From a virus, in UHGV virus genome UHGV-0390443: DNA of 39,252 bases. The stretch is one strand, 5' to 3'. The notes under the pieces are model-generated. The model made no database searches. It was not told the origin of the DNA and saw nothing but the letters and a program-made list of their open reading frames with translations. A program made the translations under genes and the position numbers. Below, piece after piece: positions 694 to 37,990 of this stretch; within the stretch, counting starts at the first letter, position 1, and every line of letters begins with the position of its first letter.

Positions 694-708
694 TTACCTT
701 TGAGGTGC
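694..708. promoter_or_regulatory. Operator-like dyad TTACCTTTGAGGTGC (imperfect member of TTACCT-N4-GGTAA family)
   Basis: Matches family consensus in 14 of 15 core positions; intergenic, upstream of zinc-finger gene on minus strand. Confidence 0.45.
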
Positions 709-709
709 G

Positions 710-742
710 AATAGATATGAAAAGACCGCCGGATGGCGGTCT
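710..742 (-). terminator. Putative intrinsic terminator after Cro-like gene (tR1-like position)
   Basis: Stem AGACCGCC/GGCGGTCT (723..742) with loop GGAT; minus-strand downstream tract TTTCATAT. Confidence 0.45.
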
Positions 743-763
743 ACAGAGGGTTGTGGCTGGATA

Positions 764-994
764 TCATGAGTAGAAGAAGTATGCCAGTTCTGCTTTTGAG
801 CGCAGCCATTGTCTTGTTTTACAGGCTTTAAAAAGCCCATTCATCAATACCTTACCTGGCATTTTGCGCTTACCTGTTAAGTGAGTCTGGATATAGTGAC
901 TCGTCGTTCCGGCTTCCTGTGCGAAGGCTTCACGCTCATCCGGAGTAAGTGCAAGCCAGTGCTTTTTGAAATCGAAATGTCCGTTATCGCTCAT
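764..994 (-). CDS. Cro-like HTH DNA-binding protein (first gene of minus-strand early operon)
   Basis: 76-aa ORF; HTH-like segment FAQEAGTTSHYIQTHLTGKR; divergent from repressor across operator-containing intergenic region. Confidence 0.6.
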   Translation of the reverse strand: MSDNGHFDFKKHWLALTPDEREAFAQEAGTTSHYIQTHLTGKRKMPGKVLMNGLFKACKTRQWLRSKAELAYFFYS

Positions 995-1061
995 AGCTAT
1001 TGCCTGATATTTATTTCAGATAATAAATATTCACCCATAAGGTAACAAAAATCAAGGATAG

Positions 1062-1093
1062 TTACCTATGGGGTGCATTTACCTGTTGGGTAA
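1062..1093. promoter_or_regulatory. Tandem operators in the switch region: TTACCTATGGGGTGC (1062..1076) and TTACCTGTTGGGTAA (1079..1093), centres 17 bp apart
   Basis: Dyad-symmetric sites between divergent genes 764..994(-) and 1149..1733(+); also flanked by GGTAAC...GTTACC inverted repeat 1041..1066. Confidence 0.6.
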
Positions 1094-1148
1094 TATTGCT
1101 TTAAATTGAATCATCTACTGATTCATATATGAGGCGATTTTCCAGAAA

Positions 1149-1733
1149 ATGAAAAGTATCCAGGACGTCCGCAGGCAAAATCTCAACGACTTGATCGACC
1201 GTGAATTCAATGGTGTTCAGACGCGGATGGCAGAAAAACTTGGAACTCAGGCAAATCTGGTAAACCGCTGGGCTCTTGGCAAGAAGGTTATCGGCGACCA
1301 GGTTGCGCGAAAAATTGAAGCTGCCGCCAATAAACCCCGTAACTGGCTTGATATCGATCGCTCGCTTTCTCAGGAAGGTTTTCAGCCTGTCGGCCCAAGC
1401 GACATTGGTCAGCTGGCGGCTCACAACCTGGAACGCTGGATGAGCGAAAGCCGCGACCTTTCAACACAGGGAAAACTTCACCGCGCATCCGGCGTCGCCC
1501 AGGTGACAATCAGCCGCCTGTTAAACAATGAGGTCAGCGTTTCCATTTCCACCCTGGAGAATGTTGCATCCGCATTCGGGCGTCACGGCTATGAATTACT
1601 GATTCACCCGCACGACCCTGCGACCATCAACTATGACCGCTCGCGCTACGCATTGTTACCCGAAACCGAGAAAGCAAAGATCGAAAGTTACATTGAATTT
1701 GTCATCAACCAGAACGAAAAAAACAAACAATAA
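1149..1733 (+). CDS. Phage repressor-like regulator with two HTH modules (CII/XRE-like N-terminal HTH plus second HTH); no LexA-like peptidase domain evident
   Basis: 194-aa ORF; motifs QTRMAEKLGTQANLVNRWALGKK and LHRASGVAQVTISRLLNNEVSVSISTLENVASAFG; CI-like position (divergent from Cro-like gene, followed by terminator). Confidence 0.65.
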   Translation: MKSIQDVRRQNLNDLIDREFNGVQTRMAEKLGTQANLVNRWALGKKVIGDQVARKIEAAANKPRNWLDIDRSLSQEGFQPVGPSDIGQLAAHNLERWMSESRDLSTQGKLHRASGVAQVTISRLLNNEVSVSISTLENVASAFGRHGYELLIHPHDPATINYDRSRYALLPETEKAKIESYIEFVINQNEKNKQ

Positions 1734-1753
1734 AATCATATTTTTCAGTAAGT

Positions 1754-1779
1754 AAGCCGCCTTCTGGCGGCTTTTTTAT
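1754..1779 (+). terminator. Rho-independent terminator after repressor gene
   Basis: AAGCCGCC-TTCT-GGCGGCTT followed by TTTTATT. Confidence 0.75.
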
Positions 1780-1790
1780 TGCCTGCGCAA

Positions 1791-1867
1791 TTACCTTAAG
1801 GGTAATTTTTTTAACTCATATCTATTGACACCAAACCAAATACGCATAATTATTACCTCAACGGTAA
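1791..1867. promoter_or_regulatory. Early plus-strand promoter region with two operators: TTACCTTAAGGGTAA (1791..1805) and TTACCTCAACGGTAA (1853..1867), flanking TTGACA at 1825..1830
   Basis: Perfect dyads; -35-like hexamer between them; immediately upstream of RBS GAGGTGA and ATG 1887. Confidence 0.6.
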
Positions 1868-1886
1868 CAGACCGAGGTGACAAGTT

Positions 1887-2039
1887 ATGCAGTGGAAAAT
1901 CATCAACGGTTGGTACTGCGTTACTGCATGCGGATTCATGAGCTGGAAGTTCCGCACCTTACAGGAAGGCATTAAGTGGGCTTTCGTCAGCAAAGAAGCT
2001 CGCGATGTGGCCAACGATAACGAGATATGGGAGGGCTGA
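1887..2039 (+). CDS. Small hypothetical protein (50 aa)
   Basis: ATG 1887 with strong RBS GAGGTGA at 1874..1880; not in ORF track (below 60 aa); MQWKIINGWYCVTACGFMSWKFRTLQEGIKWAFVSKEARDVANDNEIWEG. Confidence 0.45.
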   Translation: MQWKIINGWYCVTACGFMSWKFRTLQEGIKWAFVSKEARDVANDNEIWEG

Positions 2040-2041
2040 TA

Positions 2042-4037: not shown

Positions 4038-4086
4038 CCACCACCGCGGCGCCACGCGCGCCGCACTGCAACCAAGAGAGGTATTT

Positions 4087-6832: not shown

Positions 6833-6860
6833 AATTCACCCGTATAGAAACCATTTTCAT

Positions 6861-6896
6861 GACGGTATGAGAGTATACCTTTAAGGTAATACCGTC
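6861..6896. promoter_or_regulatory. Int-proximal nested palindrome GACGGTAT...ATACCTTTAAGGTAA...ATACCGTC (contains an operator-family site at 6875..6889)
   Basis: 8-bp inverted repeat 6861..6868 / 6889..6896 enclosing a dyad site; immediately upstream of int start. Confidence 0.4.
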
Positions 6897-6954
6897 ACCT
6901 GTACCGCCGAAAAATATGGTGTAGAGTGAATAGAAATGAATACATAAAAACAAA

Positions 6955-6980
6955 AAACCCTCTGTAAAAACAGAGGGTTA
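6955..6980 (-). terminator. Rho-independent terminator ending the late operon (after spanin genes)
   Basis: Stem CCCTCTG/CAGAGGG with loop TAAAAA; minus-strand downstream tract TTTTTGTTTTT. Confidence 0.7.
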
Positions 6981-7150
6981 AATTAGTATCTGAATAGGAA
7001 TGAGTTGCTATGAGTTAGCTGTTAATCATTCCCACTCAATTATTTACGAAAACCATAACCAATTGACTGATAACAACTTTCCTCAACCTAATTTTCACCG
7101 TACCGTTTTATATACCGTCACCGGAAATCAGTACCATGAAAAATGCCATG

Positions 7151-8557: not shown

Positions 8558-8957
8558 CGCCTTTTCTCCCCGGAATTAACTCGCGTGGATTATCGGAACG
8601 GTGATAGAGCCAGATGCCAATTCGAACTGCGACGATTGCTGACACGAATGCACCAGCAGAGAAAACAATCCCTTTCTCAAACGAGTCCTGCGTAATGGTA
8701 GGGATCAGGCTGGCTATGCCGATAAGAATTGATGCTGCTGGTTTGTAAAAGAGAAGGCCGCAAAGAAAGCTAAGCATCGACAGGAGCACCCGTCGGCGAA
8801 TCGGATATTCGACAGCAGAGGTAACAAAAATTACCGCACCAGACAAAGAACCCAAAGCAACCTCCGGAGGAACACCTGCTATCACCGCAGCAAGAGACCC
8901 CATACTAAGCCACTGATTTAATGTTTCACTGGTTAGTTGAGCAGACATGTTTTTCAC
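8547..8957 (-). CDS. Holin-like multi-pass membrane protein
   Basis: 136 aa, several hydrophobic helices; first gene of lysis cassette. Confidence 0.55.
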   Translation of the reverse strand: MKNMSAQLTSETLNQWLSMGSLAAVIAGVPPEVALGSLSGAVIFVTSAVEYPIRRRVLLSMLSFLCGLLFYKPAASILIGIASLIPTITQDSFEKGIVFSAGAFVSAIVAVRIGIWLYHRSDNPRELIPGRKGDGN

Positions 8958-9214
8958 CGTTTATGTACATTAAAACCATAAGAAAAGAGAATAACACATT
9001 AAACCATAAATGGTTTTTTGTTACCTTGCAACAATTTGTGAAATAAATGAAACACAAAACAATAATAAATAAACAGCAGGAGATATTTAAAAGATGGAAT
9101 TTAACATATATTAAATATAAGCATGTGATAAGCAGAACGCCTATTTATTCGCATGACAACACATTATATTGACAGATATTTATTGGTAAATACAGAGCAT
9201 GTATTTTAAGTAAA

Positions 9215-9235
9215 CCTGCGCTATAACAGCGCAGG
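9215..9235 (-). terminator. Hairpin just downstream of tailspike gene (possible terminator or attenuator)
   Basis: CCTGCGC-TATAACA-GCGCAGG; minus-strand downstream TTTACTT; within AT-rich 8958..9263 spacer. Confidence 0.4.
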
Positions 9236-9263
9236 TCAACAATTATAAAAAAAGAAATTTAAT

Positions 9264-11804: not shown

Positions 11805-11908
11805 GTTAAATCTCCAGATAGTCGCAGCACCCGTTGCGCCGCATATCTGGTTATTCTATTACCTGAAAAACCACATATGGATAGAAAGACTATAAATACC
11901 AATAGATA

Positions 11909-11923
11909 TTACCTTTCGGGTGA
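11909..11923. promoter_or_regulatory. Operator-like dyad TTACCTTTCGGGTGA (imperfect)
   Basis: Family consensus match; upstream of LexA box and small antirepressor-like gene. Confidence 0.4.
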
Positions 11924-11960: not shown

Positions 11961-11980
11961 TACTGTATAAATATACAGTT
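11961..11980. promoter_or_regulatory. LexA (SOS) box TACTGTATAAATATACAGTT
   Basis: CTGT-N8-ACAG with AT-rich spacer, near-perfect to E. coli consensus TACTGTATATATATACAGTA; 20 bp upstream of ATG 12001. Confidence 0.75.
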
Positions 11981-12000
11981 ATTGCATGGAGAAGATAAGA

Positions 12001-12257
12001 TGCAGCAGTATCACTATCCACTGGAAGACGGATTTACCGAAAGGATTCACACGCCGGGAGGCGTCAGATCACTGGTGGAGGGATCGCACTTGATGAAATT
12101 ACTCCGGGATCTCGATAAGGATGGATTTAATGTCGATGGCCCACTTGCCGAACTGACTGCACTGATTAACTACGTCACCAGCTCACAGATGTCTATGCAG
12201 GATCTGCAAACACATCTCGACTATTGTGCCGAACAATTACGAAAGCAAACCAGATAA
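12001..12257 (+). CDS. Small antirepressor-like protein (paralog of the C-terminal domain of the downstream Bro-N antirepressor), putatively SOS-induced
   Basis: 85 aa from ATG 12001 (RBS GGAGAAG); HTPGGVRSLVEGSHLMKLLRDLDKDGFNVDGPLAELTALINYV aligns with HSPSGVLGLTEHSLLMNLLNQLQEDGHDVSGAAAELTTMFCYI of 12571..13263; ORF-track start 11877 rejected because the LexA box lies inside it. Confidence 0.6.
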
Positions 12258-12289
12258 GGTTTGCAATTACCAAGTGGAGTGCTTATATT

Positions 12290-12304
12290 TACCTTTGCGG
12301 TAAA
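12290..12304. promoter_or_regulatory. Operator TTACCTTTGCGGTAA
   Basis: Perfect family dyad, extended palindrome ATTTACC...GGTAAAT. Confidence 0.55.
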
Positions 12305-12570
12305 TTTACATCGCACTCCTCTTGTGCCATAGTAATCAGGCACTGGCAAAATCCAGTGCCGGGATTGGTCTCCCGGATTACTACAGAGGCACATATGCCG
12401 CATAAGCGGTTTTTTTATGTGTAAAGCGCACCTATTCTATGGTGGGCTGTGTGGGGGCACCGAAAGGTGCGCCGGGTTCCTTTGTAGCCGGTAAGACCAA
12501 CTCTGCACAGTTCACCACCATCTGATTGGTCTCAGCGGTGGTGATTAACCTAACTACAAAGGTGATCGCC

Positions 12571-13263
12571 ATGAATACCAAACCTTCCATCTTTTCCTTT
12601 GAGTCATCCTGCCAGATCCGTATGTTCATGATTGACGGAGAACCTTGGTTTGTCACCAAAGATGTGTGCAATGCTTTGAATATTGATGTTACACAAGCGA
12701 GAAAACTTGATAAAAAAGGCTGGAACAAAAAGGGGCTGTATTCAATACAGACCCCTGGTGGAATACAAGAACTATCCATCGTTTCAGAATCAGGTCTCTA
12801 CATCCTTATTCTGCGTTGCAAAGAGGCAATGACAGAGGGAACGAGAGCATTCAGATTTCTTGAATGGGTTACAGGTGAGGTTCTTCCTCAGATCCGCCGC
12901 ACCGGAAGTTACATTAAAAACTCGCTCCCGCAGGAAGAACGCATAAAGATGGTTGCCGACCAGGTAGCCAACGCCACGGCGTCAGCAGTAATGCAGGCGA
13001 TGAAGATAGAGAACAAAACCTACAGTGCCCCACTGAAGCCCGGCTACCGTAGCCTGATTCATTCGCCGTCTGGTGTTCTCGGCCTGACGGAGCACTCACT
13101 GCTGATGAATCTGCTGAACCAGTTACAGGAAGACGGGCATGATGTATCAGGCGCGGCGGCGGAGCTGACCACCATGTTCTGCTACATCGTCGGTGTGAGC
13201 AAATGCCTGCGTGATATCCAGACGCACGCGGAGTACATCAACGACAAGGCTGGGTTCTTCTGA
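12571..13263 (+). CDS. Antirepressor with Bro-N N-terminal domain and Ant/KilA-C-like C-terminal domain
   Basis: ATG 12571 with RBS AAAGGTGA; Bro-N signature SIFSFESSCQIRMFMIDGEPWFVTKDVCNALNI. Confidence 0.75.
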   Translation: MNTKPSIFSFESSCQIRMFMIDGEPWFVTKDVCNALNIDVTQARKLDKKGWNKKGLYSIQTPGGIQELSIVSESGLYILILRCKEAMTEGTRAFRFLEWVTGEVLPQIRRTGSYIKNSLPQEERIKMVADQVANATASAVMQAMKIENKTYSAPLKPGYRSLIHSPSGVLGLTEHSLLMNLLNQLQEDGHDVSGAAAELTTMFCYIVGVSKCLRDIQTHAEYINDKAGFF

Positions 13264-13329
13264 CGGGCGGCGGCACAGGGATGTGCCTTTAAAATAATCA
13301 TTGGCGATGTGATGTAGATTCGCGTAATA

Positions 13330-13344
13330 TTACCTTAAAGGTAA
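13330..13344. promoter_or_regulatory. Operator TTACCTTAAAGGTAA overlapping a putative promoter (-10-like TAATAT 13325..13330)
   Basis: Perfect dyad 27 bp upstream of ATG 13371. Confidence 0.55.
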
Positions 13345-13370: not shown

Positions 13371-13580
13371 ATGGGATTTTGGTTCGCTCGTACAAAAACG
13401 AGGGATAATGCACCCAGCCCTCAGGCAAAAAATGCAGAAGTTCCGGCGTCAGCGCAGGTTAACAAGCGTGGTGGAGTATATATCTCATCACAGCAAATTT
13501 CTGAGCTTCCTGAGGTTAAGGAGATGCGTCGTCTCGCTGCTGCAATTGTTAAACAGGATCTTGCCACTGTAAGGAAGTAG
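13371..13580 (+). CDS. Small soluble hypothetical protein (69 aa), first gene of a two-gene moron operon
   Basis: ORF with strong RBS GAGGAGGAG; stop overlaps start region of the membrane protein gene. Confidence 0.55.
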   Translation: MGFWFARTKTRDNAPSPQAKNAEVPASAQVNKRGGVYISSQQISELPEVKEMRRLAAAIVKQDLATVRK

Positions 13581-14446
13581 TGTTGCTAGCTCTTCTAATT
13601 ATCCCAATCCTGGTTAGCGGTTATATTATGATAACCGCTAACCAGTATCATTATTTCCGTTTATACCGACACGAAGGCCAGCTTCTTTATATGAAAGTAG
13701 CGGCACTAGGTACATATTGCCTTGTTGCATCAGTAATAATTGCAGCCGCTATAAAATATAAATGGCCTGATTTTCACCTAGTTCACGATATGGTGGAAAC
13801 TTTTAATGTAACATCAAAACCAGAAACAGATAGAATTTACATGTGGCTGCTTCTTCTCTCAGCCACATCCATTTGCTTCTCTTTGTGTTATGTGTCTGTT
13901 GTGTGGGTGAAAGATTTTCTTCTTGGTTGTTTTTATAAACGTGATATTTACGAGCAAAAAACAGAGGCAATGAAGGCCAGAGTACTGCGAAAAACTTACT
14001 CGCAAGGTTCTTTAGACTTACTATTGCTTGATGCTATTGAATCGGATCCTAAACGACCAATGCTGATTACTTTATCATCAAACAAAGTGTATGTTGGAAT
14101 AATAAATGGTTCTGGTGAACCAACGGAAAATCAGGGTCCGCATCAGCACATATCTTTTGTTCCTTTAATGTCAGGATACAGGAACAAAGAAAACTTATCT
14201 GTCACATTCACTAATGCTTATCCAGGAGAAATACAGGTCAAGCGGACTGCAGCAATAAGAGGAATTAGCAGAAAGAAAGTGCCAGGACTTGAGATCATGG
14301 TGTCTATTGACGAAATAAGTTATATATCATGGTTTGATTTTGAAGTATATAAAGCAACAAATAACAAAGTAGAATCCAGGGGGCACGTTATTCGTGTTAC
14401 CAAAAATGGAAGAAATATATATCAAAGAAATAGCAAAAAAGAATAG
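13580..14446 (+). CDS. Membrane protein with about 3 N-terminal TM helices and a ~170-aa C-terminal soluble domain; function unknown
   Basis: 288-aa ORF, low GC; hydrophobic segments LLALLIIPILVSGYIMITA, VAALGTYCLVASVIIAAAI, IYMWLLLLSATSICFSLCYVSVVWV; start (GTG 13580 or TTG 13583) uncertain. Confidence 0.55.
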   Translation: MLLALLIIPILVSGYIMITANQYHYFRLYRHEGQLLYMKVAALGTYCLVASVIIAAAIKYKWPDFHLVHDMVETFNVTSKPETDRIYMWLLLLSATSICFSLCYVSVVWVKDFLLGCFYKRDIYEQKTEAMKARVLRKTYSQGSLDLLLLDAIESDPKRPMLITLSSNKVYVGIINGSGEPTENQGPHQHISFVPLMSGYRNKENLSVTFTNAYPGEIQVKRTAAIRGISRKKVPGLEIMVSIDEISYISWFDFEVYKATNNKVESRGHVIRVTKNGRNIYQRNSKKE

Positions 14447-18837: not shown

Positions 18838-21584
18838 TATTTGCCCCCTGCGTATATATTGCTCGGAAGGTAATTGGCTGAACCATAACCGAATGGTTTG
18901 GTCAGATCTGGAGGAGTATATCCATCTTTATTGCTGAACTGCGGCAGCGGATTGCCTTCTCTCCGCACTCTAGCCTCATCAACACGCTGTTGCTGTAACT
19001 GAATGGTTTGCCTGTACATTGGAGATGTCAGCTGATCCGGCTTGAAACGAACAGGGAGACCATTTTCTCCAATATAATTTCTCGGTTCTATCGCTCCGTT
19101 TGCGTCAGGCTGTAAAACCATAACAGCATAACTCCTATCCCTTGCCGTAAGGCCATCAGAAACAAGTATTAAGTCCGTATCACTGCGAGGACCGCCAAAG
19201 GATTTTGATTTAAGCTCGCGTTTTTCCTGCTCCCACTGCCCCTGTATCCAGTTACCAGCACCATTATTTACTCCGTACAATGCCTCAGGTGCATACTTCA
19301 TAACCTCTGCTTTGCCATTAACCGTAGAAACTCCCCAGGTGGTTCTGATCATGGCATTGGTCATTTTCTCAGCCTGTTCTGCATCGCCACCTGTCTGTAC
19401 AAAGTTAGCATCGTAAATTGTCTGGTAATCTCGCTGATAGGCCGCATTTGATTTTCCTGGATCGGTAATATCCGGAGACCACGAACCAAAGGAAGTCAGA
19501 CTGCTGGCGTTATTTTGTGCAGCAGTTGCCCTCGCCGCGACATATTTTTTGTCTCGCATGGCAGTGGAAAGCATCTGTTTCATTCGGTCATCCTGTTGGA
19601 ACACCTGGCTGTAAGCCATATCAACAGCCTTATCCTCCGGCACGCCAGCGCGGGAATAATCGTAAACCTTGCCGTAAAATGCCATCGTACTTTTATCAAG
19701 TGTTGCCGCTGCCGCCGGATTATTATCGAATAACTGACCGTAGAATTTTGCCATCGGGACAACCAGCGCAGGATCTCTTGATGTTGCTCCACTGTTAAGC
19801 ATTGTTTTAACCTGAGTTGGTATCATGCCGCTTTTAGTTGTGACGGTGACCAGTGTATTGATGCTCTGCGGATCAGATATGGAAAACGAAGGCGCGATAT
19901 CCTGCGCGAAATAACGGTCTACCGCTGCCTGATTGTTTTTGTCGTTCGGGTCCAGCGGGAAGTTATTTTGCATTGAAGACACGAACCTGTTTCTTCCCTG
20001 CTGAATCTCCCACTCCCTATCCATCTCTTTAAATTTGGCCTGCATTTTCTCCCAGCGTTGCTGGTTAGCAGCAAATCCAGGAGCGTTTGGATCCTGTGGA
20101 CGTAAACGTTCAAGAATGTCTTGTCGTCCTTCTGGAGTGAGGTCTTTAGCGGCACCAATGACACCTCCATATTGTATCTGCGCCTGCATATCCTTCCACT
20201 TCATAGCGCCAATGCGCGGACCATTGGCCCGGATAAAATCGTCCTCAGAAGGTAACTTCTCAGGTTTCAATCCTTCATCAAGGGCTGAATATGCATCTTT
20301 AACTACGGTGCTAAGCTGGTCCGCATACTGCTGGCGGTACTGATTTCTCAGCTCATTAGCCTGCCTCAATGCCTGTATTTGCATTTGAGGGCTCATAGCA
20401 TCAAATGCCGCATTGCCCGTATAACGCTTAGGTGAATCAAGGTTAGTTAGACCAAGGGCTGCCGAGATACCAGTTTCAAGCTGTTCGGTGCTATAAGGCA
20501 TACTGCCATTTTCGTGTTTAATAATCCCAGCACATAAAGCAGCTAGTGTCTTTGGGTTAGAGATATCAAGCTGATCATTCTCCCCAACACCAAGCTCACC
20601 ACACAATGCCCTAATATAAGCATCAGTATTATTACCATCACTAGCCGGAGCATAGCGATTAACAATCTCGCTAACGGTGTCATAGCCTTGACGCTGGTAA
20701 GACAACATATTTTTACCCAACGCGCGGATTCCATGCTCAGGGGTAGCAAACGTTGCAAAACGTCCATCGCTACCGATCTGACCTTCCCACGGGTTAGATT
20801 TGCTCGCTTCAATATTACCAGGGTTATTATTACGTAAACCACGAGCATCCAATGAATTACCATGTGATATTGCACGACTCACACCACCAAGATCCCCTGG
20901 CTCTCCATTAACCTGAAGAAACTCGTTGTATTTTTGAGCGATATTTCCTATCCATGCTTGCTGCCCCATTTCTTCCTTGAGCTGAGTTTTCTGCTGAACA
21001 CGCCACTCATCAGGAAGCCCATGCGCATCAGCGTATTGATCAATAGATTCAAATCGCTGCTTGGCTAAATCGACAAATGCTTGGTTATCGCTATATAGCC
21101 CCGCAGACTGAGTGACAGCCAATGCATTTCCTGACAAATACGTTTGATCTTGGAATTGCTGAAACTGCCCAACTTCATATCGACGTGCCTGATTGTAATA
21201 AGACTGCATAGACTGCTGGAGTTGAAAGGATAATTTATTCCTTTCCTCACTTTCAGGGATTGAGCCTAATAATGCCTGAGCCCTTTCCTGCATATTTTTC
21301 ATAACAGCGTCACTCTGACCAAGAGCGTTTTTACCCTGTTTAGAAATCAGCCCATTTTCAGGGTTGTTAATCTGGTCATCTGCAAATTGGTTAAATTGCA
21401 GTAACGCCTCCTGGGCCATAGCAACATTCGCTTTCTGCCTGGCTTCACCATATGCCACCGCATACTGATCTGCGACATTCGCCAGCACCTGACCTGCTTG
21501 AGGAACATCGAAGGTCTGAAAACCACCGGTTTGCACACCACGACTTTGCACCTGGCGTCCGGATGTAGTAGGAACAACAGGCAT
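18837..21584 (-). CDS. Internal virion / ejection protein (T7 gp15-like position) with conserved RNNNPGNI motif region
   Basis: 915 aa; segment ARGLRNNNPGNIEASKSNPWEGQIGSDGRFATFATPEHGIRALGKNM; start overlaps stop of upstream gene. Confidence 0.7.
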   Translation of the reverse strand: MPVVPTTSGRQVQSRGVQTGGFQTFDVPQAGQVLANVADQYAVAYGEARQKANVAMAQEALLQFNQFADDQINNPENGLISKQGKNALGQSDAVMKNMQERAQALLGSIPESEERNKLSFQLQQSMQSYYNQARRYEVGQFQQFQDQTYLSGNALAVTQSAGLYSDNQAFVDLAKQRFESIDQYADAHGLPDEWRVQQKTQLKEEMGQQAWIGNIAQKYNEFLQVNGEPGDLGGVSRAISHGNSLDARGLRNNNPGNIEASKSNPWEGQIGSDGRFATFATPEHGIRALGKNMLSYQRQGYDTVSEIVNRYAPASDGNNTDAYIRALCGELGVGENDQLDISNPKTLAALCAGIIKHENGSMPYSTEQLETGISAALGLTNLDSPKRYTGNAAFDAMSPQMQIQALRQANELRNQYRQQYADQLSTVVKDAYSALDEGLKPEKLPSEDDFIRANGPRIGAMKWKDMQAQIQYGGVIGAAKDLTPEGRQDILERLRPQDPNAPGFAANQQRWEKMQAKFKEMDREWEIQQGRNRFVSSMQNNFPLDPNDKNNQAAVDRYFAQDIAPSFSISDPQSINTLVTVTTKSGMIPTQVKTMLNSGATSRDPALVVPMAKFYGQLFDNNPAAAATLDKSTMAFYGKVYDYSRAGVPEDKAVDMAYSQVFQQDDRMKQMLSTAMRDKKYVAARATAAQNNASSLTSFGSWSPDITDPGKSNAAYQRDYQTIYDANFVQTGGDAEQAEKMTNAMIRTTWGVSTVNGKAEVMKYAPEALYGVNNGAGNWIQGQWEQEKRELKSKSFGGPRSDTDLILVSDGLTARDRSYAVMVLQPDANGAIEPRNYIGENGLPVRFKPDQLTSPMYRQTIQLQQQRVDEARVRREGNPLPQFSNKDGYTPPDLTKPFGYGSANYLPSNIYAGGK

Positions 21585-30800: not shown

Positions 30801-30868
30801 ATCAATGACTCCGTACGCAATTAAATTATTACCAATTTAACCACATATGATTTATTTATCGTAGATAG

Positions 30869-30905
30869 TTGACATTTAACGCACAAATTATTACCTTTCA
30901 GGTAA
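30869..30905 (+). promoter_or_regulatory. Putative promoter (TTGACA 30869..30874) with operator TTACCTTTCAGGTAA (30891..30905), facing tRNA and gp49-like gene
   Basis: -35 hexamer; dyad overlaps expected -10 position at 17-bp spacing. Confidence 0.5.
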
Positions 30906-31227: not shown

Positions 31228-31304
31228 GTGGCATTAGCTCAGTTGGACAGAGCAACCGCCTTCTAAGCGGTTGGTCGCAGGTTCGAATCCTGCATGCCAC
31301 GCCA
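31228..31304 (+). tRNA. tRNA-Arg (anticodon UCU), with encoded CCA
   Basis: Manually folded cloverleaf: acceptor GTGGCAT/ATGCCAC, D-stem GCTC/GAGC, anticodon stem ACCGC/GCGGT with loop CTTCTAA, T-stem GCAGG/CCTGC with TTCGAAT loop. Confidence 0.85.
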
Positions 31305-31967: not shown

Positions 31968-33443
31968 TTAAGCATAAGGGTCATAATCCGTTATGGCCCT
32001 TCCCTGCTGGCTTTGCTGTCCTGGTATATTTATGCGTTTCGAGACCGGGAAAGCAAACGTCAGCAGTAGCGCATCTCCTTTACCAGGAGAACGCCCAAGA
32101 CGCTCTTTGATATCTTCCTTCGGTTCGATAACGATTTTACCGTCCACACGAACTTTGTACTCTGCCGCCGACAGGTCGTCTGCAGTTTCCTGGTCATCCA
32201 GCATGCCGCCCAGCCTCAGCCATGTCTTACATGAGTTGAACATCTCCCCACGCTTGTTAAGCATCTGCGGGTCAGTGGACGCACCGCCGAACGGAACAAG
32301 TTGCCATGTACGTCCCCAGCCATCACCGATTGACTTCAAACCGGTTCCATAACCGAAGTCGATGAACACCGCGTCAGCCTGATACTGGTCTTCAAAGTCA
32401 GCGATACGCTTCGCCATAATCAGATCGTCGGTGGTCTTGTTACCAGTCCATAGCACCTTACTGTGCAGCCCCTGCCGCAGGTATATCACAGCGTCATCAA
32501 CGCCGGAGTATGCCGGGTCAACGCCGATTATCACCGGAGCATGTGCAACCTGCGCAGCGGTTACCACCCGTTTCATTGCCTCGTCAGTAAGGCCGGTAGG
32601 GATAAACTGCAATTCAGATGCATCCGGGAATATGCCGCGCACACGGATTTTAACGAAGTCGCTGTCTTCCCCGTAGTCATCAACCCATTTCTGCAACTGC
32701 TGTTTGTTAGTGCCTTCCACCGTCCGGCTGTCAATCTGCGCAGTTTTCCAGCGGTGTTTATATTTGCGGAAACATTCGCGGAAACGCCCGGTGTTACGTG
32801 TAGGGTTTCCGAATGCCACCCAGATAATCTCAGTGTCTTCGTCCGTCAGCGCACCCTCTGCTACCTCCCACACCAGATCGGCAATGTTGGATGCTTCGTC
32901 GAATACCACGATGATGCGTTTGCGCTCGTTGTGTAGTCCGGCGAATGCCTCAGTGTTGTGCTCAGACCAGGGGATTGCGTCAGCTCGCCACCGCTTGTCG
33001 TGCCCAGGGTCATTGCTGTACATCGCGGTAGCGGTACAGGTAAACCAGTCTTTCGTGATAGCAAGGTTCGACCACTTGATAATTTCCGGCCAGGTCTTCG
33101 TTCGTAGCTGGTTGTCGGTGTTGGCGGTCACCACGACCTTACAATCCTCGCAAGTGGACATGCCCCAGTTGATCAGCATTGAGATGAATGCGGATTTACC
33201 AATACCGTGACCAGAAGCACGTGCCAGCATAAGCGGCTGATATCGCGTCTCTGGATTCTGCAGGTGATCACGTATCTCTCGGAACGCATCGGCCTGCCAC
33301 TGACGTGGACCGGTGGCATGTGCCAGTTCAGTACCCTCTTCCCCCCACGGGAACGCATAGAGGGCATAGCCAAGCGGATCGTGAGTGAACCCTGCAATAT
33401 CCTCGATTAACTGCTCTTCAGGAGATAATGCTGTATCTGTCAC
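31968..33443 (-). CDS. Terminase large subunit
   Basis: 491 aa; Walker A-like ARASGHGIGKS; nuclease-domain acidic residues in C-terminal half; overlaps small subunit gene. Confidence 0.9.
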   Translation of the reverse strand: MTDTALSPEEQLIEDIAGFTHDPLGYALYAFPWGEEGTELAHATGPRQWQADAFREIRDHLQNPETRYQPLMLARASGHGIGKSAFISMLINWGMSTCEDCKVVVTANTDNQLRTKTWPEIIKWSNLAITKDWFTCTATAMYSNDPGHDKRWRADAIPWSEHNTEAFAGLHNERKRIIVVFDEASNIADLVWEVAEGALTDEDTEIIWVAFGNPTRNTGRFRECFRKYKHRWKTAQIDSRTVEGTNKQQLQKWVDDYGEDSDFVKIRVRGIFPDASELQFIPTGLTDEAMKRVVTAAQVAHAPVIIGVDPAYSGVDDAVIYLRQGLHSKVLWTGNKTTDDLIMAKRIADFEDQYQADAVFIDFGYGTGLKSIGDGWGRTWQLVPFGGASTDPQMLNKRGEMFNSCKTWLRLGGMLDDQETADDLSAAEYKVRVDGKIVIEPKEDIKERLGRSPGKGDALLLTFAFPVSKRINIPGQQSQQGRAITDYDPYA

Positions 33444-34036
33444 TGATTGCCATCCTGACGTTCTTTCAGTCTCTTCCTGGCTGCCGCTATGCGATCAGCA
33501 ATTGTCACATTCACATTAACATCCAGGCGTTCTTTGAATGCGTTGACGTCGACGTGCTTACCAATCAGTTCGAGGTTCTTCACCTTGTCAGGCCATTTAA
33601 TTTTTTTGAGGATTGTCTCTATCGAATCCTCGTTCATGTTCATGATGGTCGATGACAGATCAAAGCCACTAAGCGTAGTGCGCCAGATTTTCGGCCACTC
33701 ACGGATTGGTTTAAGGCTCCCATCGTCGTTGAGGATATCGATCACGTCCATCTGGTCGATCTCCACCAGGCGCATGAGAACGTAATCAGCACTGACGCGC
33801 ATTCGTTTGTTGCGCTCCTCCATCAACTCGGCAATCCGTTTTTGAATGCGTTCATCGCGCATCATGACACTGGCTTTAACTGCCGCTGTATTTGGGGAGA
33901 ATCCTGCGTTAATCGCTGCCTGAGTCTGGTTTTCAGGCGTTTTGATGTATGACTGGCAATAAGCCTCCTGCATTGCTGTGAGCGGCTTAAATTGCGTTGA
34001 TTTGCGTTTATAGGTTTTAGGTTCAGCAGGCATCAT
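33440..34036 (-). CDS. Terminase small subunit
   Basis: ORF track 33440..34114; start at MMPAEPKTYKRK (34036) preferred because a minus-strand terminator hairpin lies at 34078..34105 and the conserved LTAMQEAYCQSY region begins ~19 aa later. Confidence 0.7.
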   Translation of the reverse strand: MMPAEPKTYKRKSTQFKPLTAMQEAYCQSYIKTPENQTQAAINAGFSPNTAAVKASVMMRDERIQKRIAELMEERNKRMRVSADYVLMRLVEIDQMDVIDILNDDGSLKPIREWPKIWRTTLSGFDLSSTIMNMNEDSIETILKKIKWPDKVKNLELIGKHVDVNAFKERLDVNVNVTIADRIAAARKRLKERQDGNQ

Positions 34037-34077
34037 AACCACCGTGGTAATAGTTACCGTTGTGGTAATAGTACCAT

Positions 34078-35024: not shown

Positions 35025-35812
35025 CACTTCACCTCCTGCGGCGGTTCTGGTAGTTGCATCCAGTGTGATGGTATCCACGACGCACCAGGAATTATCCACC
35101 CATCATTAGCGTCAGGATGCCCAGGGATGTAAGTCGCCCATTTCATTCGCCAGTCACCTTTCCTGTCAAACTCCCTGGCAACAAGAACGGCTGTTTTGCT
35201 ATCCGGCATTAGATCACTACAGCTTATCCAACCATCCGGAGTTACCGGATAGTTGCCCGATAGCGCATTACGCAATCGCTCCAGCTTCACGTATTCCTGA
35301 ACCCTGTTTCCGTCGCATGCCTGAAGCCATTGCGCAGCCTTTTGCGCATCAGTGTGAAAGGCACAAGTGCGACCGTCATCAAATTGCATTTCGTAGAGGT
35401 CAGCAACTTGTTCAAACTGCGTGTGTTGTGACTTGTAAGTTTGGCTTACAGGTTCGGCACCATGAAGCATGGCGGCGCGGCAGGCGTTCCAGCCTCTCAC
35501 CTCTGCAATAGCGGCAACAGCATCGACCGCGTACATTTTAAGAGGGTTAGGCATTGGTTTTTCTTCAGGTACTACTGGCACTGGAGGGGCGGCATAAACA
35601 GGAATAACGTCCGATTGCTCTTTATTGCTTTCATCCGTTAAAGCCCAGAATAATTTTCCAGCCGGATGTTTGAAAATATAAGCAACTGGATCTGCTTCCA
35701 GCGATGCCAGTGCAATTTCATAAGCACGGCGCTCAATATTGTCTCGAACGTCCAAGCTGCCTATGCGCTCTTTGATTTCTTTAATCAGTTCTTTGTCGGT
35801 GAAAGTGGTCAT
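35024..35812 (-). CDS. DUF551 domain-containing early protein
   Basis: ATG 35812 with RBS AAGGAG; C-terminus GWISCSDLMPDSKTAVLVA...SHWMQLPEPP matches DUF551 signature ending. Confidence 0.6.
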   Translation of the reverse strand: MTTFTDKELIKEIKERIGSLDVRDNIERRAYEIALASLEADPVAYIFKHPAGKLFWALTDESNKEQSDVIPVYAAPPVPVVPEEKPMPNPLKMYAVDAVAAIAEVRGWNACRAAMLHGAEPVSQTYKSQHTQFEQVADLYEMQFDDGRTCAFHTDAQKAAQWLQACDGNRVQEYVKLERLRNALSGNYPVTPDGWISCSDLMPDSKTAVLVAREFDRKGDWRMKWATYIPGHPDANDGWIIPGASWIPSHWMQLPEPPQEVK

Positions 35813-36164
35813 ATCACTCTCCTTTAGTGCGAAAGTGGTTTTTCCAGCGGTTTTGTGCTGCGCTTCTGTTTCGCCAGACACCGTAAAAACGAATAGAGGA
35901 ACACCCCCTAAAACCCAGATATCTATAGTAAATAACAAGCCGATTTGAGATACGGATACGCTGCCCCGGCTTTGCTATCAGCATCTTTGCCTTACGGTTT
36001 TTCATCGCACTGCGTACCCCTTCTCTCGTCTGTTCCGCGACGCGGTGGGTTTATAGTTAAATGCGAATACCACCCTACCAAACATGCCGATCACCGCCCG
36101 TTTGTGATTGCTGATTGGTAGCTTCTCGTACCCCGTCGAACGCGATAAAAGAAGTAATTTTGCC

Positions 36165-36890
36165 TTACGGTTTTTCATCGTTTTGTTCTCCTGCGTCTCC
36201 TTTGATGCGAATGCCAGCGACGCGGATTGCAGCGATGACTTCAGAAACTTTGTATGCCATTACCGTTTGGTAATCCTCGTTAAAATCTGTTCGATGAAGC
36301 ATACTGCTACGTTCCGGGAGCAGTATTTCCCGCGCTTCCAGTTCTGCTATGCGCTTCTCTGCGGATTCCAGCGCCGCAACCAATTCGTCTACAGTTCCGG
36401 CAGCTTGCAGTGCGTAATCGGTAATAGCCATCTCATGATCAATTTCAGTACCGTTCTCATTCGTTGAGGTGATAGCAAAATAATCAGAGTCGATTTCGTT
36501 ATCAGCTAAGTGGCGTAGCGTATCGGCAACAAGCCGGCCGTTTTCGATTAGCAGCTTCCCTACCGTTAGCGCAATATCCTCGTTCTCCTGGTCGCGGGAT
36601 TTGATGTATTGCTGGTTTCTTTCCCGTTCATCCAGTAATGCCAGCACGGTAGCTGGATTGGCTGCGGCGATGAATTCAGCATTGGCCTGCTGTTCCATTT
36701 GGAAATCTTCATAGAAACGGCTTTCTGGATGCGCTCCTTCAATTCTGCAAATGGGAATATATCCAGCAACCTCGCGATGAATTAGTGCATCATCACCATC
36801 AAATCGTCCCTCTCCATATTCGAGCGACCACACACCACACGTTGCTTTCTCTGCCTTAGCACGCAATGCCTGATAGTCAATCTTGCTCAC
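36165..36890 (-). CDS. Ead/Ea22-like family protein
   Basis: Motifs IDYQALRAKAEKAT, NAEFIAAANPATVLALLDE, AEKRIAELEA; GTG 36890 preferred (RBS AGGAGG) over ORF-track 36923. Confidence 0.6.
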   Translation of the reverse strand: MSKIDYQALRAKAEKATCGVWSLEYGEGRFDGDDALIHREVAGYIPICRIEGAHPESRFYEDFQMEQQANAEFIAAANPATVLALLDERERNQQYIKSRDQENEDIALTVGKLLIENGRLVADTLRHLADNEIDSDYFAITSTNENGTEIDHEMAITDYALQAAGTVDELVAALESAEKRIAELEAREILLPERSSMLHRTDFNEDYQTVMAYKVSEVIAAIRVAGIRIKGDAGEQNDEKP

Positions 36891-37504
36891 TGGTTGCCTC
36901 CTTTGCGAAGCTGCTCCGCACAATGCAGCAGGGCGTCCGTCGCTTCTTTCACCGTAACGATGTCGCCATCGTCCAGCCCGGCAACCGTCGCGTCCTTAAC
37001 GAACACCGAGCAAAGGTCATTAAACGCCTGCGCCCGTACTTCAGCCAGGAAAGCATCGGTGGCTGGGGTTTCGACATTAGGTCGAAGCTCATAATCACAA
37101 ACTCTTTCAATCCATGGTGATACTCTGTCGCATTTCCTCTTCTTGCGTTCACCGACCTTGGTTGCCTGCTGAATAATTACCCCCCAGCAAATGCTTTCGA
37201 CCTCTTCGCTCCATCCATCGCAAGCATCGCCTCTATAGTCGTCAATTGCAGCCTCAGCAGCAGCGATAGCCTCCTCAGCAGTTTTGTGACACTCGAAACT
37301 AAATTCAGAGCCATATGAGAAATACATAGCCCCGGCCTTCAGTCTTGCATTCTCCGCCGCCAGCGCATTAGCACGCGCCAGTTGCACTTCCAGTTGCGCT
37401 GCCAAACAGCGAACAAGCACGGATGGTGCGCCTGTCATGTCGTCAGCTAACGCATGCCCTGATGCCACTAAATCTTTGATCATACCTTCAGCCATACTTT
37501 CCAT
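36887..37504 (-). CDS. Hypothetical early protein (205 aa)
   Basis: ORF track; Ala-rich coiled-coil-like N-terminus. Confidence 0.5.
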   Translation of the reverse strand: MESMAEGMIKDLVASGHALADDMTGAPSVLVRCLAAQLEVQLARANALAAENARLKAGAMYFSYGSEFSFECHKTAEEAIAAAEAAIDDYRGDACDGWSEEVESICWGVIIQQATKVGERKKRKCDRVSPWIERVCDYELRPNVETPATDAFLAEVRAQAFNDLCSVFVKDATVAGLDDGDIVTVKEATDALLHCAEQLRKGGNQ

Positions 37505-37565
37505 CTTTACCCTCGCTTATCCACATAACTTATTGATTACATTGATAACTAAAAAGATCGTCGAT

Positions 37566-37910
37566 TCAGAACTCTTCGATGTTCCAGCCACCACCTGCTT
37601 TCTTTGGTTTAACCGTTACCCCGATGATTCGGAACGGATACTGATCTGCGGCGACTTTGGTTTTCACCCTGGCGTCGTCGGTCCAGAAACCTTTCACTTC
37701 GTGCAGTTCCATCTCGCCGGTGGCGAGCATCACAGCAAAATCGGGCGTATAGAACGTGTTGTCAGCTAACCGCAGCTTGATACCCTCAAATCGATACCAG
37801 ACGATTTCTCCTGCACGTTTACGCAGCTCAAGGTGCTGGCAATACGCAGATTCTGTTTTGTTCATCTGTCCTGTTTTGAGTCGACCAAGAGCCTGTATCT
37901 GTTTTCTCAT
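37566..37910 (-). CDS. DUF1064-like protein, predicted PD-(D/E)XK nuclease fold (possible resolvase)
   Basis: 114 aa; YTPDF and ELHEVKG motifs consistent with a D...ExK active site. Confidence 0.55.
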   Translation of the reverse strand: MRKQIQALGRLKTGQMNKTESAYCQHLELRKRAGEIVWYRFEGIKLRLADNTFYTPDFAVMLATGEMELHEVKGFWTDDARVKTKVAADQYPFRIIGVTVKPKKAGGGWNIEEF

Positions 37911-37913
37911 GAT

Positions 37914-37990
37914 TTACCTCTGAGGTAATTAAAAACCACATAAGACACGAAATCAATAGATTTTAGAATATTTTATTACCTAACAGGTAA
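37914..37990. promoter_or_regulatory. Two operators TTACCTCTGAGGTAA (37914..37928, overlapping the RBS of 37566..37910) and TTACCTAACAGGTAA (37976..37990)
   Basis: Perfect dyads in the P-like/DUF1064 intergenic region. Confidence 0.55.

What the first reader, a model, noticed from the sequence alone, without database searches (positions are those of the whole stretch)
694..37990. Genome-wide family of at least 12 TTACCT-N4-GGTAA dyad operators at intergenic promoter regions
A 15-bp dyad recurs at 694, 1062, 1079, 1791, 1853, 6875, 11909, 12290, 13330, 30891, 37914 and 37976. Eight copies are perfect and four have one half-site mismatch (ATACC, GGTGC or GGTGA). Every copy is intergenic and most overlap a -35/-10-like promoter or an RBS. 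They sit at the cro/repressor switch, the plus-strand early promoter, delayed-early genes, the tRNA/gp49 moron, both antirepressor genes, the membrane-protein operon and the int-proximal region. One regulator controlling many scattered promoters, including morons, is unlike the clustered OL/OR arrangement of lambda and more like P1 C1 regulons. The binding protein is unknown; candidates are the tandem-HTH repressor (1149..1733) and the Cro-like protein (764..994).
Basis: seen in the sequence. Interest (0 to 1): 0.75.

Follow-up and report, generated by a model that had tools for sequence, protein, structure and literature searches.

The report
Known repressor operators of epsilon15-like phage
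The repeated TTACC-N5-GGTAA dyads are real binding sites for this phage's main repressor at nearly every promoter, but the same motif is already annotated as repressor sites in the sister phage epsilon15, so the finding is sound but not new.

Summary
The window has 9 exact and 4 one-mismatch TTACC-N5-GGTAA dyads. Shuffles predict 0.03 and 0.7 genome-wide, and 0.006 and 0.12 in intergenic DNA alone. All 13 are intergenic, and only the N5 spacing is enriched. The two-mismatch sites at 694 and 1062 are at background level as pattern matches, but their positions are conserved in relatives.

The window is a complete phiV10/epsilon15-like temperate podovirus (Uetakevirus). GenBank AY150271.2 (epsilon15) already annotates seven scattered ATTACC-N5-GGTAAT sites as "protein_bind: repressor". 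A matrix built from those seven recovers ten of the window's sites. About ten operator positions are syntenic in six genus members.

The binder is not unknown. ORF 1149..1733 is a full-length homologue of SPC32H Rep (PDB 5D50). Its partner Ant (12000..12257) sits behind a LexA box.

The layout is partly lambda-like: a triple operator between cro and rep, and operator pairs exactly 62 bp apart bracketing two early promoters. It is partly dispersed, with single or tandem sites at the terS, head/moron, tail-fibre and second-antirepressor units.

Verdict: real and functional, already known in kind, low novelty.

The parts
1149..1733 (+). Rep, the prophage repressor. It has an N-terminal HTH DNA-binding domain, a middle HTH-like dimerisation domain and a C-terminal tetramerisation/Ant-binding domain.
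   Evidence: Full-length match to SPC32H Rep, PDB 5D50 (E=4e-42). It is 100% identical to the vB_EcoP_ZX5 and phiV10 repressors. The helix NLVNRW is invariant in five genus members. Pfam finds only HTH families and no S24 peptidase.
764..994 (-). Cro-like small regulator (epsilon15 gp39 / phiV10 p41 homologue), divergent from rep.
   Evidence: Matches phrog_35 'transcriptional repressor' (E=5.6e-13). It is 58-84% identical across the genus, with a conserved AGTTSHYIQTHLTG segment.
1031..1045 (.). OR1 (TCACCCATAAGGTAA), inside the best leftward (cro) promoter matches.
   Evidence: A site lies 44-47 bp from the cro ATG in all six phages.
1062..1076 (.). OR2 (TTACCTATGGGGTGC, 2 mismatches).
   Evidence: Its position is conserved, 17 bp from OR3, in all six phages. 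It is an exact site in epsilon15, SPC32H and BUCT711.
1079..1093 (.). OR3 (exact), rep-proximal. It overlaps a possible -35 of the rep promoter.
1791..1805 (.). OL distal operator, 62 bp upstream of OL proximal.
1853..1867 (+). OL proximal operator. It abuts the -10 of the early-left promoter (TTGACA 1825-1830, 17 nt, AATTAT 1848-1853), which drives the recE/recT operon.
694..708 (-). Operator-like site (2 mismatches) after the cro terminator (742-723) and upstream of the replication genes.
   Evidence: A site lies 61-63 bp from the cro stop codon in all six phages.
37914..37928 (-). Proximal operator of the delayed-early promoter (TTGATT 37956-37951, 17 nt, TTTAAT 37933-37928). It contains the RBS of the DUF1064 gene 37566..37910.
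37976..37990 (-). Distal operator of the delayed-early promoter, 62 bp from the proximal one.
   Evidence: The spacing is 62 bp in 11 of 12 pairs across six phages (coordinates).
34054..34068 (-). terS operator 1 (exact), in phase with an extended -10 (TGgTACTAT) just after the terminator at 34105-34088.
   Evidence: It is orthologous to the annotated epsilon15 repressor site at 12-27.
34036..34050 (-). terS operator 2 (1 mismatch), 18 bp from operator 1 and ending 2 nt before the terS ATG.
30891..30905 (.). Operator between the head operon (30800 leftward) and the rightward tRNA-Arg/moron unit. It overlaps the -10 position of a conserved TTGACA promoter (30869-30874) that points at the tRNA.
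   Evidence: It is orthologous to the annotated epsilon15 site at 2931-2947.
11909..11923 (.). Operator in the divergent tail-fibre/ant region (TTACCTTTCGGGTGA).
   Evidence: It is orthologous to the annotated epsilon15 site at 19895-19911.
11963..11978 (+). LexA box CTGTATAAATATACAG overlapping the ant promoter.
   Evidence: It is conserved in all six phages.
12000..12257 (+). Ant, the small antirepressor.
   Evidence: Matches SPC32H Ant, PDB 5D50 chain E (E=4e-47).
12289..12303 (+). Operator at the start of the isrK/C4/Bro-N-antirepressor unit. It abuts the -10 TATATT (12284-12289) and lies 1 nt before the -35 TTTACA (12305-12310) of a second promoter.
12340..12522 (+). isrK-like sRNA (12340-12416) and C4 antisense RNA (12435-12522), upstream of the Bro-N antirepressor.
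   Evidence: Rfam gathering-threshold hits of 74.7 and 78.6 bits.
12526..13263 (+). Second antirepressor: a Bro-N domain fused to a C-terminal Ant-like domain.
   Evidence: Pfam Bro-N. PHROG anti-repressor families, with phrog_450 (the small-Ant family) matching residues 162-243.
13330..13344 (+). Operator abutting the -10 TAATAT (13325-13330) of a promoter for genes 13371..14446 (function unknown). No counterpart was found in the five genomes compared.
6875..6889 (-). Int-proximal operator-like dyad (ATACCTTTAAGGTAA). Its status is uncertain.
   Evidence: Present in all six phages with the same deviation. It lies in a hairpin-rich conserved region that the epsilon15 record annotates as Int and RNase III sites.

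Best explanation
The dyads are the operator set of the prophage repressor Rep (1149..1733) of a phiV10/epsilon15-like podovirus.

Binding. Rep is a non-cleavable repressor. Pairs of its N-terminal HTH domains read the TTACC/GGTAA half-sites, which are separated by 5 bp.

Core switch. Three operators lie between cro and rep. OR1 lies inside the cro promoter. OR3 lies on the probable rep promoter.

Early promoters. The early-left and delayed-early promoters are each bracketed by two operators exactly 62 bp apart. The proximal one starts at the last base of the -10 hexamer, so bound Rep covers the transcription start. The distal one lies about six helical turns upstream, which fits one Rep tetramer or cooperating Rep molecules clamping the promoter.

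Other units. Further single or tandem operators shut the terS promoter, the tRNA/moron promoter beside the head operon, the tail-fibre/ant region, the isrK-C4-antirepressor unit and one accessory operon.

Induction. This runs through LexA rather than Rep cleavage. DNA damage removes LexA from the box at 11963-11978, Ant (12000..12257) is made, and Ant strips Rep from all operators at once.

What is shown and what is inferred. Shown here: the sites, their enrichment, synteny and promoter phasing, and the homologies. Inferred: physical binding in this phage, the promoter assignments and the 62-bp bridging.
For: Enrichment and spacing:
- Enrichment, spacing specificity and an exclusively intergenic location.

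Link to epsilon15 and the genus:
- The epsilon15 GenBank record annotates seven ATTACC-N5-GGTAAT sites as repressor-binding.
- A matrix built from those seven finds 11 window hits against 1.1 in simulations, ten of them at the catalogued operators.
- About ten syntenic operator positions occur in six phages whose Rep proteins are only 42-78% identical to the window's.

Promoter architecture:
- The -35/17 nt/-10/operator phasing is conserved, as is the 62-bp pairing.

The proteins:
- Rep matches 5D50 Rep (E=4e-42).
- Ant matches 5D50 chain E (E=4e-47).
- A LexA box is present.
- The Rep N-terminal domain is better conserved than the rest (53% against 37% identity to SPC32H), and the helix NLVNRW is invariant.

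Natural domain swap:
- The cI of Pseudomonas phage PseuP_224 shares only this N-terminal domain (39% identity, E=1e-12) and carries an S24-type C-terminus.
- It is flanked by four TTACC-N4-GGTAA dyads (0.06 expected).
- The neighbouring small ORF tested shows no similarity to the window's Cro-like protein.

Literature:
- Overexpressing the identical Rep in phage ZX5 cut endolysin and holin mRNA by 99.99% and 99.97% (PMC9782041).
- SPC32H Rep binds palindromic sites as a tetramer and is released by tetrameric Ant (PMC9638917; PMC9986798).
Against: - No binding data exist for this phage or for any phiV10-type Rep. The primary epsilon15 and SPC32H papers could not be read here.
- Sites 694, 1062 and 6875 are weak matches.
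- The operators at the tail-fibre and head late-type promoters lie roughly 55-70 bp upstream of the likely -10, which is not a classic occluding position.
- The window lacks the lysis-cassette operator that four of the five relatives compared carry.
- The Cro-like protein is also well conserved and could share some sites.
- A 62-bp loop closed by a single tetramer is sterically demanding. PMC9986798 puts the two pairs of middle domains about 100 A apart.
Confidence: 0.85

Rival explanations
1. The dyads, or a subset such as the triple between cro and rep, are bound mainly by the Cro-like protein (764..994). Alternatively, Rep and Cro share them as in lambda, with Cro shutting down rep and early transcription during lytic growth.
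For: The Cro-like protein has a conserved HTH-like segment and is 58-84% identical across the genus. PHROG calls its family a transcriptional repressor. The conserved deviations in OR1 and OR2 (TCACC, GGTGC) suggest graded or differential affinities.
Against: PseuP_224 has the same half-sites beside a repressor that shares the Rep N-terminal domain, and the adjacent small ORF tested shows no similarity to the Cro-like protein. The epsilon15 record assigns the sites to the repressor. Overexpressing Rep alone silences lytic genes. Shared use by both proteins is not excluded.
Confidence: 0.1
2. The dyads are not protein operators. They are promoter, leader or RNA elements, such as short hairpins or RNase III sites, that recur because the phage's promoters share a common ancestry.
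For: Several sites overlap the -10, +1 or RBS, and would therefore be transcribed. The epsilon15 record places RNase III sites near some of them, including the int-proximal one.
Against: - A 5-bp stem with a 5-nt loop is too weak to act as a structural RNA element.
- The distal operators and the sites between cro and rep lie upstream of promoters, in untranscribed positions.
- The half-sites are invariant while the central 5 nt vary freely, which is the pattern of a protein-DNA dyad.
Confidence: 0.03
3. A host transcription factor common to Enterobacterales recognises TTACC-N5-GGTAA, and the phage has recruited it.
For: The motif is identical in phages of Escherichia, Salmonella, Klebsiella and Enterobacter.
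Against: No such host factor was identified here. The Pseudomonas phage with a related repressor domain has the same half-sites at a different spacing, which links the motif to the phage protein. A phage-encoded repressor with a solved structure is present.
Confidence: 0.02

Closest known systems
Repressor-binding sites of Salmonella phage epsilon15 (GenBank AY150271.2 'protein_bind: repressor, lysogeny'; Kropinski et al. 2007, Virology 369:234, recalled from memory and not readable here)
   Same: The dyad is identical (ATTACC-N5-GGTAAT), the genus is the same, and the positions are syntenic: terS, head operon, tailspike/ant, the region downstream of rep, and the delayed-early promoter.
   Different: The window's Rep is only 42% identical to epsilon15 gp38. 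The epsilon15 record lists 7 sites, whereas 15-16 are detectable in each genome. The record omits the triple between cro and rep. The window has an extra site at 13330 and lacks the lysis-cassette site.
SPC32H Rep-Ant-LexA lytic switch (PDB 5D50 and 5D4Z; Kim & Ryu 2013 J Virol; Kim et al. 2016 PNAS). Known here through citing papers PMC9638917 and PMC9986798, and from memory.
   Same: Rep and Ant are full-length homologues. A LexA box precedes ant. SPC32H carries the same operator set.
   Different: The window's phage adds a second antirepressor module: an isrK-like sRNA, a C4 RNA and a Bro-N protein fused to an Ant-like domain. The SPC32H annotation does not show this module.
Phage P1 C1 repressor regulon and immI (c4-icd-ant), from established knowledge (Heinrich, Velleman & Schuster 1995 review)
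   Same: One repressor has operators scattered over many transcription units. An antirepressor operon is preceded by a C4 antisense RNA and headed by a repressor-controlled promoter.
   Different: P1 operators are asymmetric 17-mers read by an unrelated C1 protein. Here the sites are symmetric dyads read by an HTH repressor, and there is a lambda-like divergent cro/rep core.
Lambda CI/Cro with OL and OR
   Same: The cro and rep genes are divergent, with a tripartite operator between them and a multi-operator early-left promoter.
   Different: Rep has no S24 autocleavage domain. Induction is by an antirepressor. Operators also lie at late, accessory and delayed-early promoters.
cI of Pseudomonas phage PseuP_224 (OP795451.1)
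   Same: The N-terminal HTH domain is related (39% identity) and the half-sites are the same TTACC/GGTAA.
   Different: The spacer is 4 bp rather than 5. The C-terminus is an S24-type cleavable domain. The four sites flank the cI gene within the 5.2-kb stretch examined.

Membership tests
Uetakevirus (epsilon15/SPC32H-type) Rep operator regulon | 15-17 bp dyad (A)TTACC-N5-GGTAA(T) | tested here: met
   There are 9 exact and 4 one-mismatch sites, and only the N5 spacing is enriched. A matrix built from the annotated epsilon15 sites recovers them.
Uetakevirus (epsilon15/SPC32H-type) Rep operator regulon | Rep homologue with an N-terminal HTH, a middle domain and a C-terminal tetramerisation domain | tested here: met
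   Full-length alignment to 5D50 Rep (E=4e-42). The position equivalent to interface residue Phe190 is invariant (F184 in the window protein), and the Phe187 position is Tyr (residue roles from PMC9986798).
Uetakevirus (epsilon15/SPC32H-type) Rep operator regulon | Small Ant antirepressor under a LexA box | tested here: met
   Ant matches 5D50 chain E (E=4e-47). CTGTATAAATATACAG lies at 11963-11978, 22 bp before the ant ATG.
Uetakevirus (epsilon15/SPC32H-type) Rep operator regulon | Operators at positions syntenic with those annotated in epsilon15 | tested here: met
   The terS, head, tail-fibre/ant, early-left and delayed-early positions all match.
Uetakevirus (epsilon15/SPC32H-type) Rep operator regulon | Physical binding of Rep to the dyads and release by Ant | not testable with these tools
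   Only indirect support is available: ZX5 Rep overexpression and descriptions of SPC32H Rep in citing papers.
Lambda-type CI immunity (OL/OR, RecA-mediated cleavage) | Repressor with an S24 peptidase autocleavage domain | tested here: not met
   Pfam finds only HTH families in Rep. The C-terminus aligns to the SPC32H tetramerisation domain.
Lambda-type CI immunity (OL/OR, RecA-mediated cleavage) | Operators confined to two clusters flanking the repressor gene | tested here: not met
   Clusters exist at 1031-1093 and 1791-1867. Nine further sites lie elsewhere, at 694, 6875, 11909, 12289, 13330, 30891, 34036, 34054 and 37914/37976.
P1 C1 regulon | C1-family repressor reading asymmetric 17-bp operators | tested here: not met
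   The sites are symmetric dyads. Rep is an HTH_3/XRE-type protein homologous to SPC32H Rep. The nature of P1 operators is from established knowledge.
P1 immI-type antirepressor module | C4 antisense RNA upstream of an antirepressor gene, in a repressor-controlled transcription unit | tested here: met
   Rfam C4 (78.6 bits) lies at 12435-12522, directly before the Bro-N antirepressor 12526..13263. The operator at 12289 lies upstream.

The most novel reading that the evidence does not exclude
Two points are not documented in anything I could read.

1. Early promoters across the genus are clamped by operator pairs at an invariant 62-bp spacing (11 of 12 pairs in six phages). The proximal operator is locked in phase with the -10. 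This would fit a single Rep tetramer bridging both sites across the promoter.

2. A second conserved near-palindrome, AACCA-N4-TGGTT (CCATATGTGGTT), accompanies the Rep operators.
- It occurs at the late-type head, tail-fibre and lysis promoters, 7 nt upstream of a -10 and with no -35.
- It occurs inside the spacers of the two early promoters.
- It occurs at the isrK/C4 promoter.

This pattern suggests an unidentified second regulator that represses early promoters and activates late ones, overlaid on the Rep regulon.
Probability: 0.3. Interest if true: 0.45.

Novelty: already known. Interest (0 to 1): 0.2.

Why it matters
The finding confirms that epsilon15/phiV10-type prophages are silenced by one repressor acting at nearly every transcription unit. 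These prophages are common in E. coli O157, Salmonella, Klebsiella and Enterobacter. Release comes from a LexA-controlled antirepressor. The full site catalogue, the promoter phasing and the 62-bp pairing give concrete targets for engineering these phages, some of which are used as reporter and typing phages. They also allow a test of how the tetrameric Rep represses, which a 2023 structural paper says has not been extensively characterised. As a discovery it adds little, because the motif and its assignment to the repressor are already in the public epsilon15 record.

Tried and rejected
- Primary papers. I tried to read Kropinski 2007 (DOI, PMC2698709, PMID), Kim & Ryu 2013 (PMC3807360) and Kim 2016 (DOI, PMC4983836). 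None is held. A full-text search for the consensus string I recalled found nothing. What these papers say is therefore marked as memory or taken from citing papers.\n- Chance or AT-richness. Rejected by whole-genome and intergenic-only shuffles.\n- Partner sites. I looked for weak partners 15-90 bp from the single operators. None was found.\n- Lysis-cassette operator in the window. Only a GGTAA half-site remains.\n- Identity of other regulators. I tried to identify the Cro-like protein and the p55/gp49-like regulator through PDB, Pfam and NCBIfam. Nothing informative came back beyond PHROG family names.\n- Generic promoter scan. On its own it is not informative, giving 28 hits against 32.6 expected. 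Promoter calls therefore rest on cross-phage conservation.

Full report
WHAT THE WINDOW IS

The first 8 kb is 96-97% identical to Escherichia phage phiV10, O157 typing phages 9 and 10, and relatives. Gene order matches the whole phiV10 and typing-phage-10 genomes. The window is therefore a complete, circularly permuted genome of an epsilon15-like temperate podovirus (genus Uetakevirus). Its first base lies inside the replication-initiator gene.

THE OBSERVATION

- TTACC-N5-GGTAA occurs 9 times exactly, against 0.03 expected. With one mismatch or fewer it occurs 13 times, against 0.71 expected.
- Only the 5-nt spacer is enriched.
- I built a curated gene map from ORFs and the relatives' annotations. 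On it, all 13 sites fall in intergenic DNA, which is about 8% of the genome. The 36 kb of coding DNA has none.
- Dinucleotide shuffles of the intergenic DNA alone predict 0.006 exact and 0.124 one-mismatch sites.
- Two-mismatch matches are background: 24 hits, 22 of them coding. Both occupy positions that carry a site in all six phages compared.
- Three sites were missed: 1031, 34036 and 34054.

IT IS A KNOWN OPERATOR FAMILY

The epsilon15 GenBank record (AY150271.2) carries seven "protein_bind, repressor, lysogeny" features scattered over the genome. Their sequences are all ATTACC-N5-GGTAAT.

A weight matrix built only from those seven sites gives 11 window hits at 9 bits or more, against 1.1 in simulated sequence. 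Ten of these are operators in the catalogue below, and the eleventh (31643, 9.0 bits) is a marginal match. The same matrix finds 11-17 sites in each of phiV10, epsilon15, SPC32H, Enterobacter phage Tyrion and Klebsiella phage BUCT711.

The sites are syntenic:
- upstream of terS;
- between the head operon and a divergent moron;
- between ant and the tail-fibre gene;
- downstream of ant;
- upstream of the lysis cassette (absent in the window);
- upstream of int;
- a pair downstream of rep;
- a triple between cro and rep;
- one site 61-63 bp after the cro stop codon;
- a pair before the delayed-early genes.

I recall that Kropinski et al. 2007 described this consensus. I could not open the paper, so that statement rests on memory. 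The GenBank features are the tool-verified evidence.

THE BINDING PROTEIN

- ORF 1149..1733 aligns end to end with the crystallised repressor of Salmonella phage SPC32H (PDB 5D50, E=4e-42).
- ORF 12000..12257 aligns with its antirepressor, Ant (5D50 chain E, E=4e-47).
- A perfect LexA box, CTGTATAAATATACAG, lies at 11963-11978, just before ant. It is conserved in the relatives.
- Citing papers describe SPC32H Rep as binding palindromic sites as a tetramer. The two DNA-binding domains on one site come from different dimers, and tetrameric Ant releases Rep (PMC9638917). They describe an N-terminal DNA-binding domain, a middle dimerisation domain and a C-terminal tetramerisation domain (PMC9986798). 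The Pfam HTH_3 hit at residues 106-147 is that middle domain.
- Across the genus, the Rep N-terminal domain is more conserved than the rest (53% against 37% identity to SPC32H). The helix NLVNRW is invariant. This fits invariant half-sites despite 42% overall identity.
- An independent check comes from Pseudomonas phage PseuP_224. Its cI shares only this N-terminal domain (39% identity, E=1e-12) and has a LexA-like cleavable C-terminus. It is flanked by four TTACC-N4-GGTAA dyads (0.06 expected). The small ORF beside it that I tested shows no similarity to the window's Cro-like protein. The half-site therefore travels with the Rep-type HTH, not with the Cro-like protein.
- Phage ZX5 has a Rep 100% identical to the window's. 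Overexpressing it lowered endolysin and holin mRNA by 99.99% and 99.97% (PMC9782041). That paper defines no operators.

ARCHITECTURE AND LIKELY MECHANISM

The promoter assignments below are inferred from sequence.

Paired operators at two early promoters:
- The early-left promoter (downstream of rep) and the delayed-early promoter (after the replication genes) share one design in all six phages.
- The design is: distal operator, about 20 nt, CTATTGAnn (-35), 17 nt, and a -10 hexamer whose last T is the first T of the proximal operator.
- The two operators are 62 bp apart in 11 of 12 cases (coordinates).

The same -10/operator phase recurs elsewhere:
- at 12289 (TTGCAA, 17 nt, TATATT) and 13330 (TTGGCG, 18 nt, TAATAT);
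- at terS, where a conserved TGnTACTAT extended -10 follows the preceding terminator. Two operators 18 bp apart fill the space to the start codon.

Bound Rep would thus cover the start sites. The distal operators, six helical turns away, fit cooperative or bridging binding by the tetramer. That step is conjecture.

Between cro and rep, the three operators sit at fixed distances (centres -111, -80 and -63 from the rep ATG; spacings 31 and 17 bp) in all six phages. OR1 lies inside the best leftward promoter matches. OR3 lies on a possible -35 for rep, followed by a conserved TAAATT. This is a lambda-like autoregulatory layout.

At the head and tail-fibre regions, the operator lies roughly 55-70 bp upstream of a late-type promoter. 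At the head site it also overlaps the -10 position of a conserved TTGACA promoter that points the other way, towards tRNA-Arg (31228-31304) and a moron.

Induction is expected to follow the SPC32H scheme: LexA inactivation, Ant synthesis, then Rep release.

- The family, its intergenic location, its overlap with promoters and the idea of one regulator for many units are correct.
- The P1 analogy is fair as "works like". It gains support from an Rfam C4 antisense RNA (12435-12522) and an isrK-like sRNA (12340-12416). These lie between the 12289 operator and a Bro-N antirepressor whose C-terminus is an Ant-like domain.
- Membership in the P1 C1 family fails: the dyads are symmetric and the protein is unrelated.
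- Membership in the lambda CI type fails on the missing S24 domain and on the dispersed sites.
- The claims that the binder is unknown and that there is no OL/OR-like clustering are wrong.

NOVELTY

The kind of system, the motif and its assignment to the repressor are already public for this genus. I saw no operator annotation in the phiV10-type records. The 2022 ZX5 paper leaves the mechanism open.

The possibly new items are modest:
- the full catalogue of 15 sites;
- the 62-bp pairing;
- the phasing rule;
- a second dyad family (see the items noticed in passing).

I score interest at 0.2.

LIMITS

There are no binding or transcript data for this phage. The promoter calls are consensus matches supported by conservation only. 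The site at 6875 may be an RNA or Int-related element rather than an operator.

Noticed in passing
window 675-688, 9002-9015, 11869-11882, 12248-12261, 30839-30852 (weaker: 1833-1844, 37932-37944): A second dispersed near-palindrome, AACCA-N4-TGGTT (CCATATGTGGTT), lies beside the Rep operators. Both exact copies and 5 of the 9 copies with one mismatch or fewer are intergenic. At the head, tail-fibre and lysis promoters, the block CATATGTGGTT-N7-TAnnAn is almost invariant in the six phages while its flanks vary. In the two early promoters it sits in the -35/-10 spacer. It is not annotated in epsilon15, and its binder is unknown.
   Followed up: partly
window 12340-12416 and 12435-12522 (+): Rfam gathering-level hits to the isrK Hfq-binding sRNA and the C4 antisense RNA lie directly upstream of the Bro-N antirepressor gene (12526..13263). 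This is a P1 immI / Gifsy-type antirepressor control module placed behind the Rep operator at 12289. A TTTACA-17-CATAGT promoter would start transcription at about 12340, the first base of the isrK model.
   Followed up: partly
window 12526-13263 (+): The Bro-N protein carries a C-terminal domain (residues 162-243) of the same PHROG family as the small SPC32H-type Ant. The phage therefore appears to encode two antirepressors with the same Rep-binding module under different controls: LexA for one, Rep/C4 for the other.
   Followed up: partly
window 8950-9263: The Rep operator upstream of the lysis cassette is missing here. It is present in phiV10 (24692), epsilon15 (24704), SPC32H (24782) and Tyrion (26408). 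Only a GGTAA half-site at about 9021-9025 remains, next to the second-motif palindrome. The window also lacks the O-antigen acetylase gene that lies beside this region in phiV10.
   Followed up: partly
window 1-143 (inside the gene 397..1, minus strand, running off the window start): At least five 18-24 bp direct repeats (core CCCGTTTTTGG) lie inside the N-terminal part of the replication-initiator gene and encode a repeated PKNGMLND peptide. They look like origin iterons embedded in the initiator gene, as in lambda O. The window is permuted so that its first base falls inside this gene.
   Followed up: partly
L001 (phiV10 NC_007804.2) 41-715; window 33440-34033: The phiV10 RefSeq terS start (41) lies upstream of the two operators and of the ATG used in epsilon15 and typing phage 10. 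The annotated start is probably too early.
   Followed up: no
window 6833-6990: The int-proximal dyad lies within nested inverted repeats (GACGGTA...TACCGTC). The epsilon15 record annotates this region as Int-binding and RNase III sites. Its ATACC/GGTAT deviation is conserved in all six phages.
   Followed up: partly
L007 (Pseudomonas phage PseuP_224) 2422-2474 and 3297-3336: Four TTACC-N4-GGTAA dyads flank a cI gene. Its N-terminal domain is related to Rep, but its C-terminus is an S24-type cleavable domain. The half-site is the same and the spacer is one base shorter.
   Followed up: partly
window 30801-30860 and orthologous positions in L001-L005: A 28-bp block, ATATGTGGTTAAATTGGTAATAATTTAA, upstream of the head operon is identical in all six phages despite divergent flanks. 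This is stronger conservation than a plain promoter would need.
   Followed up: no
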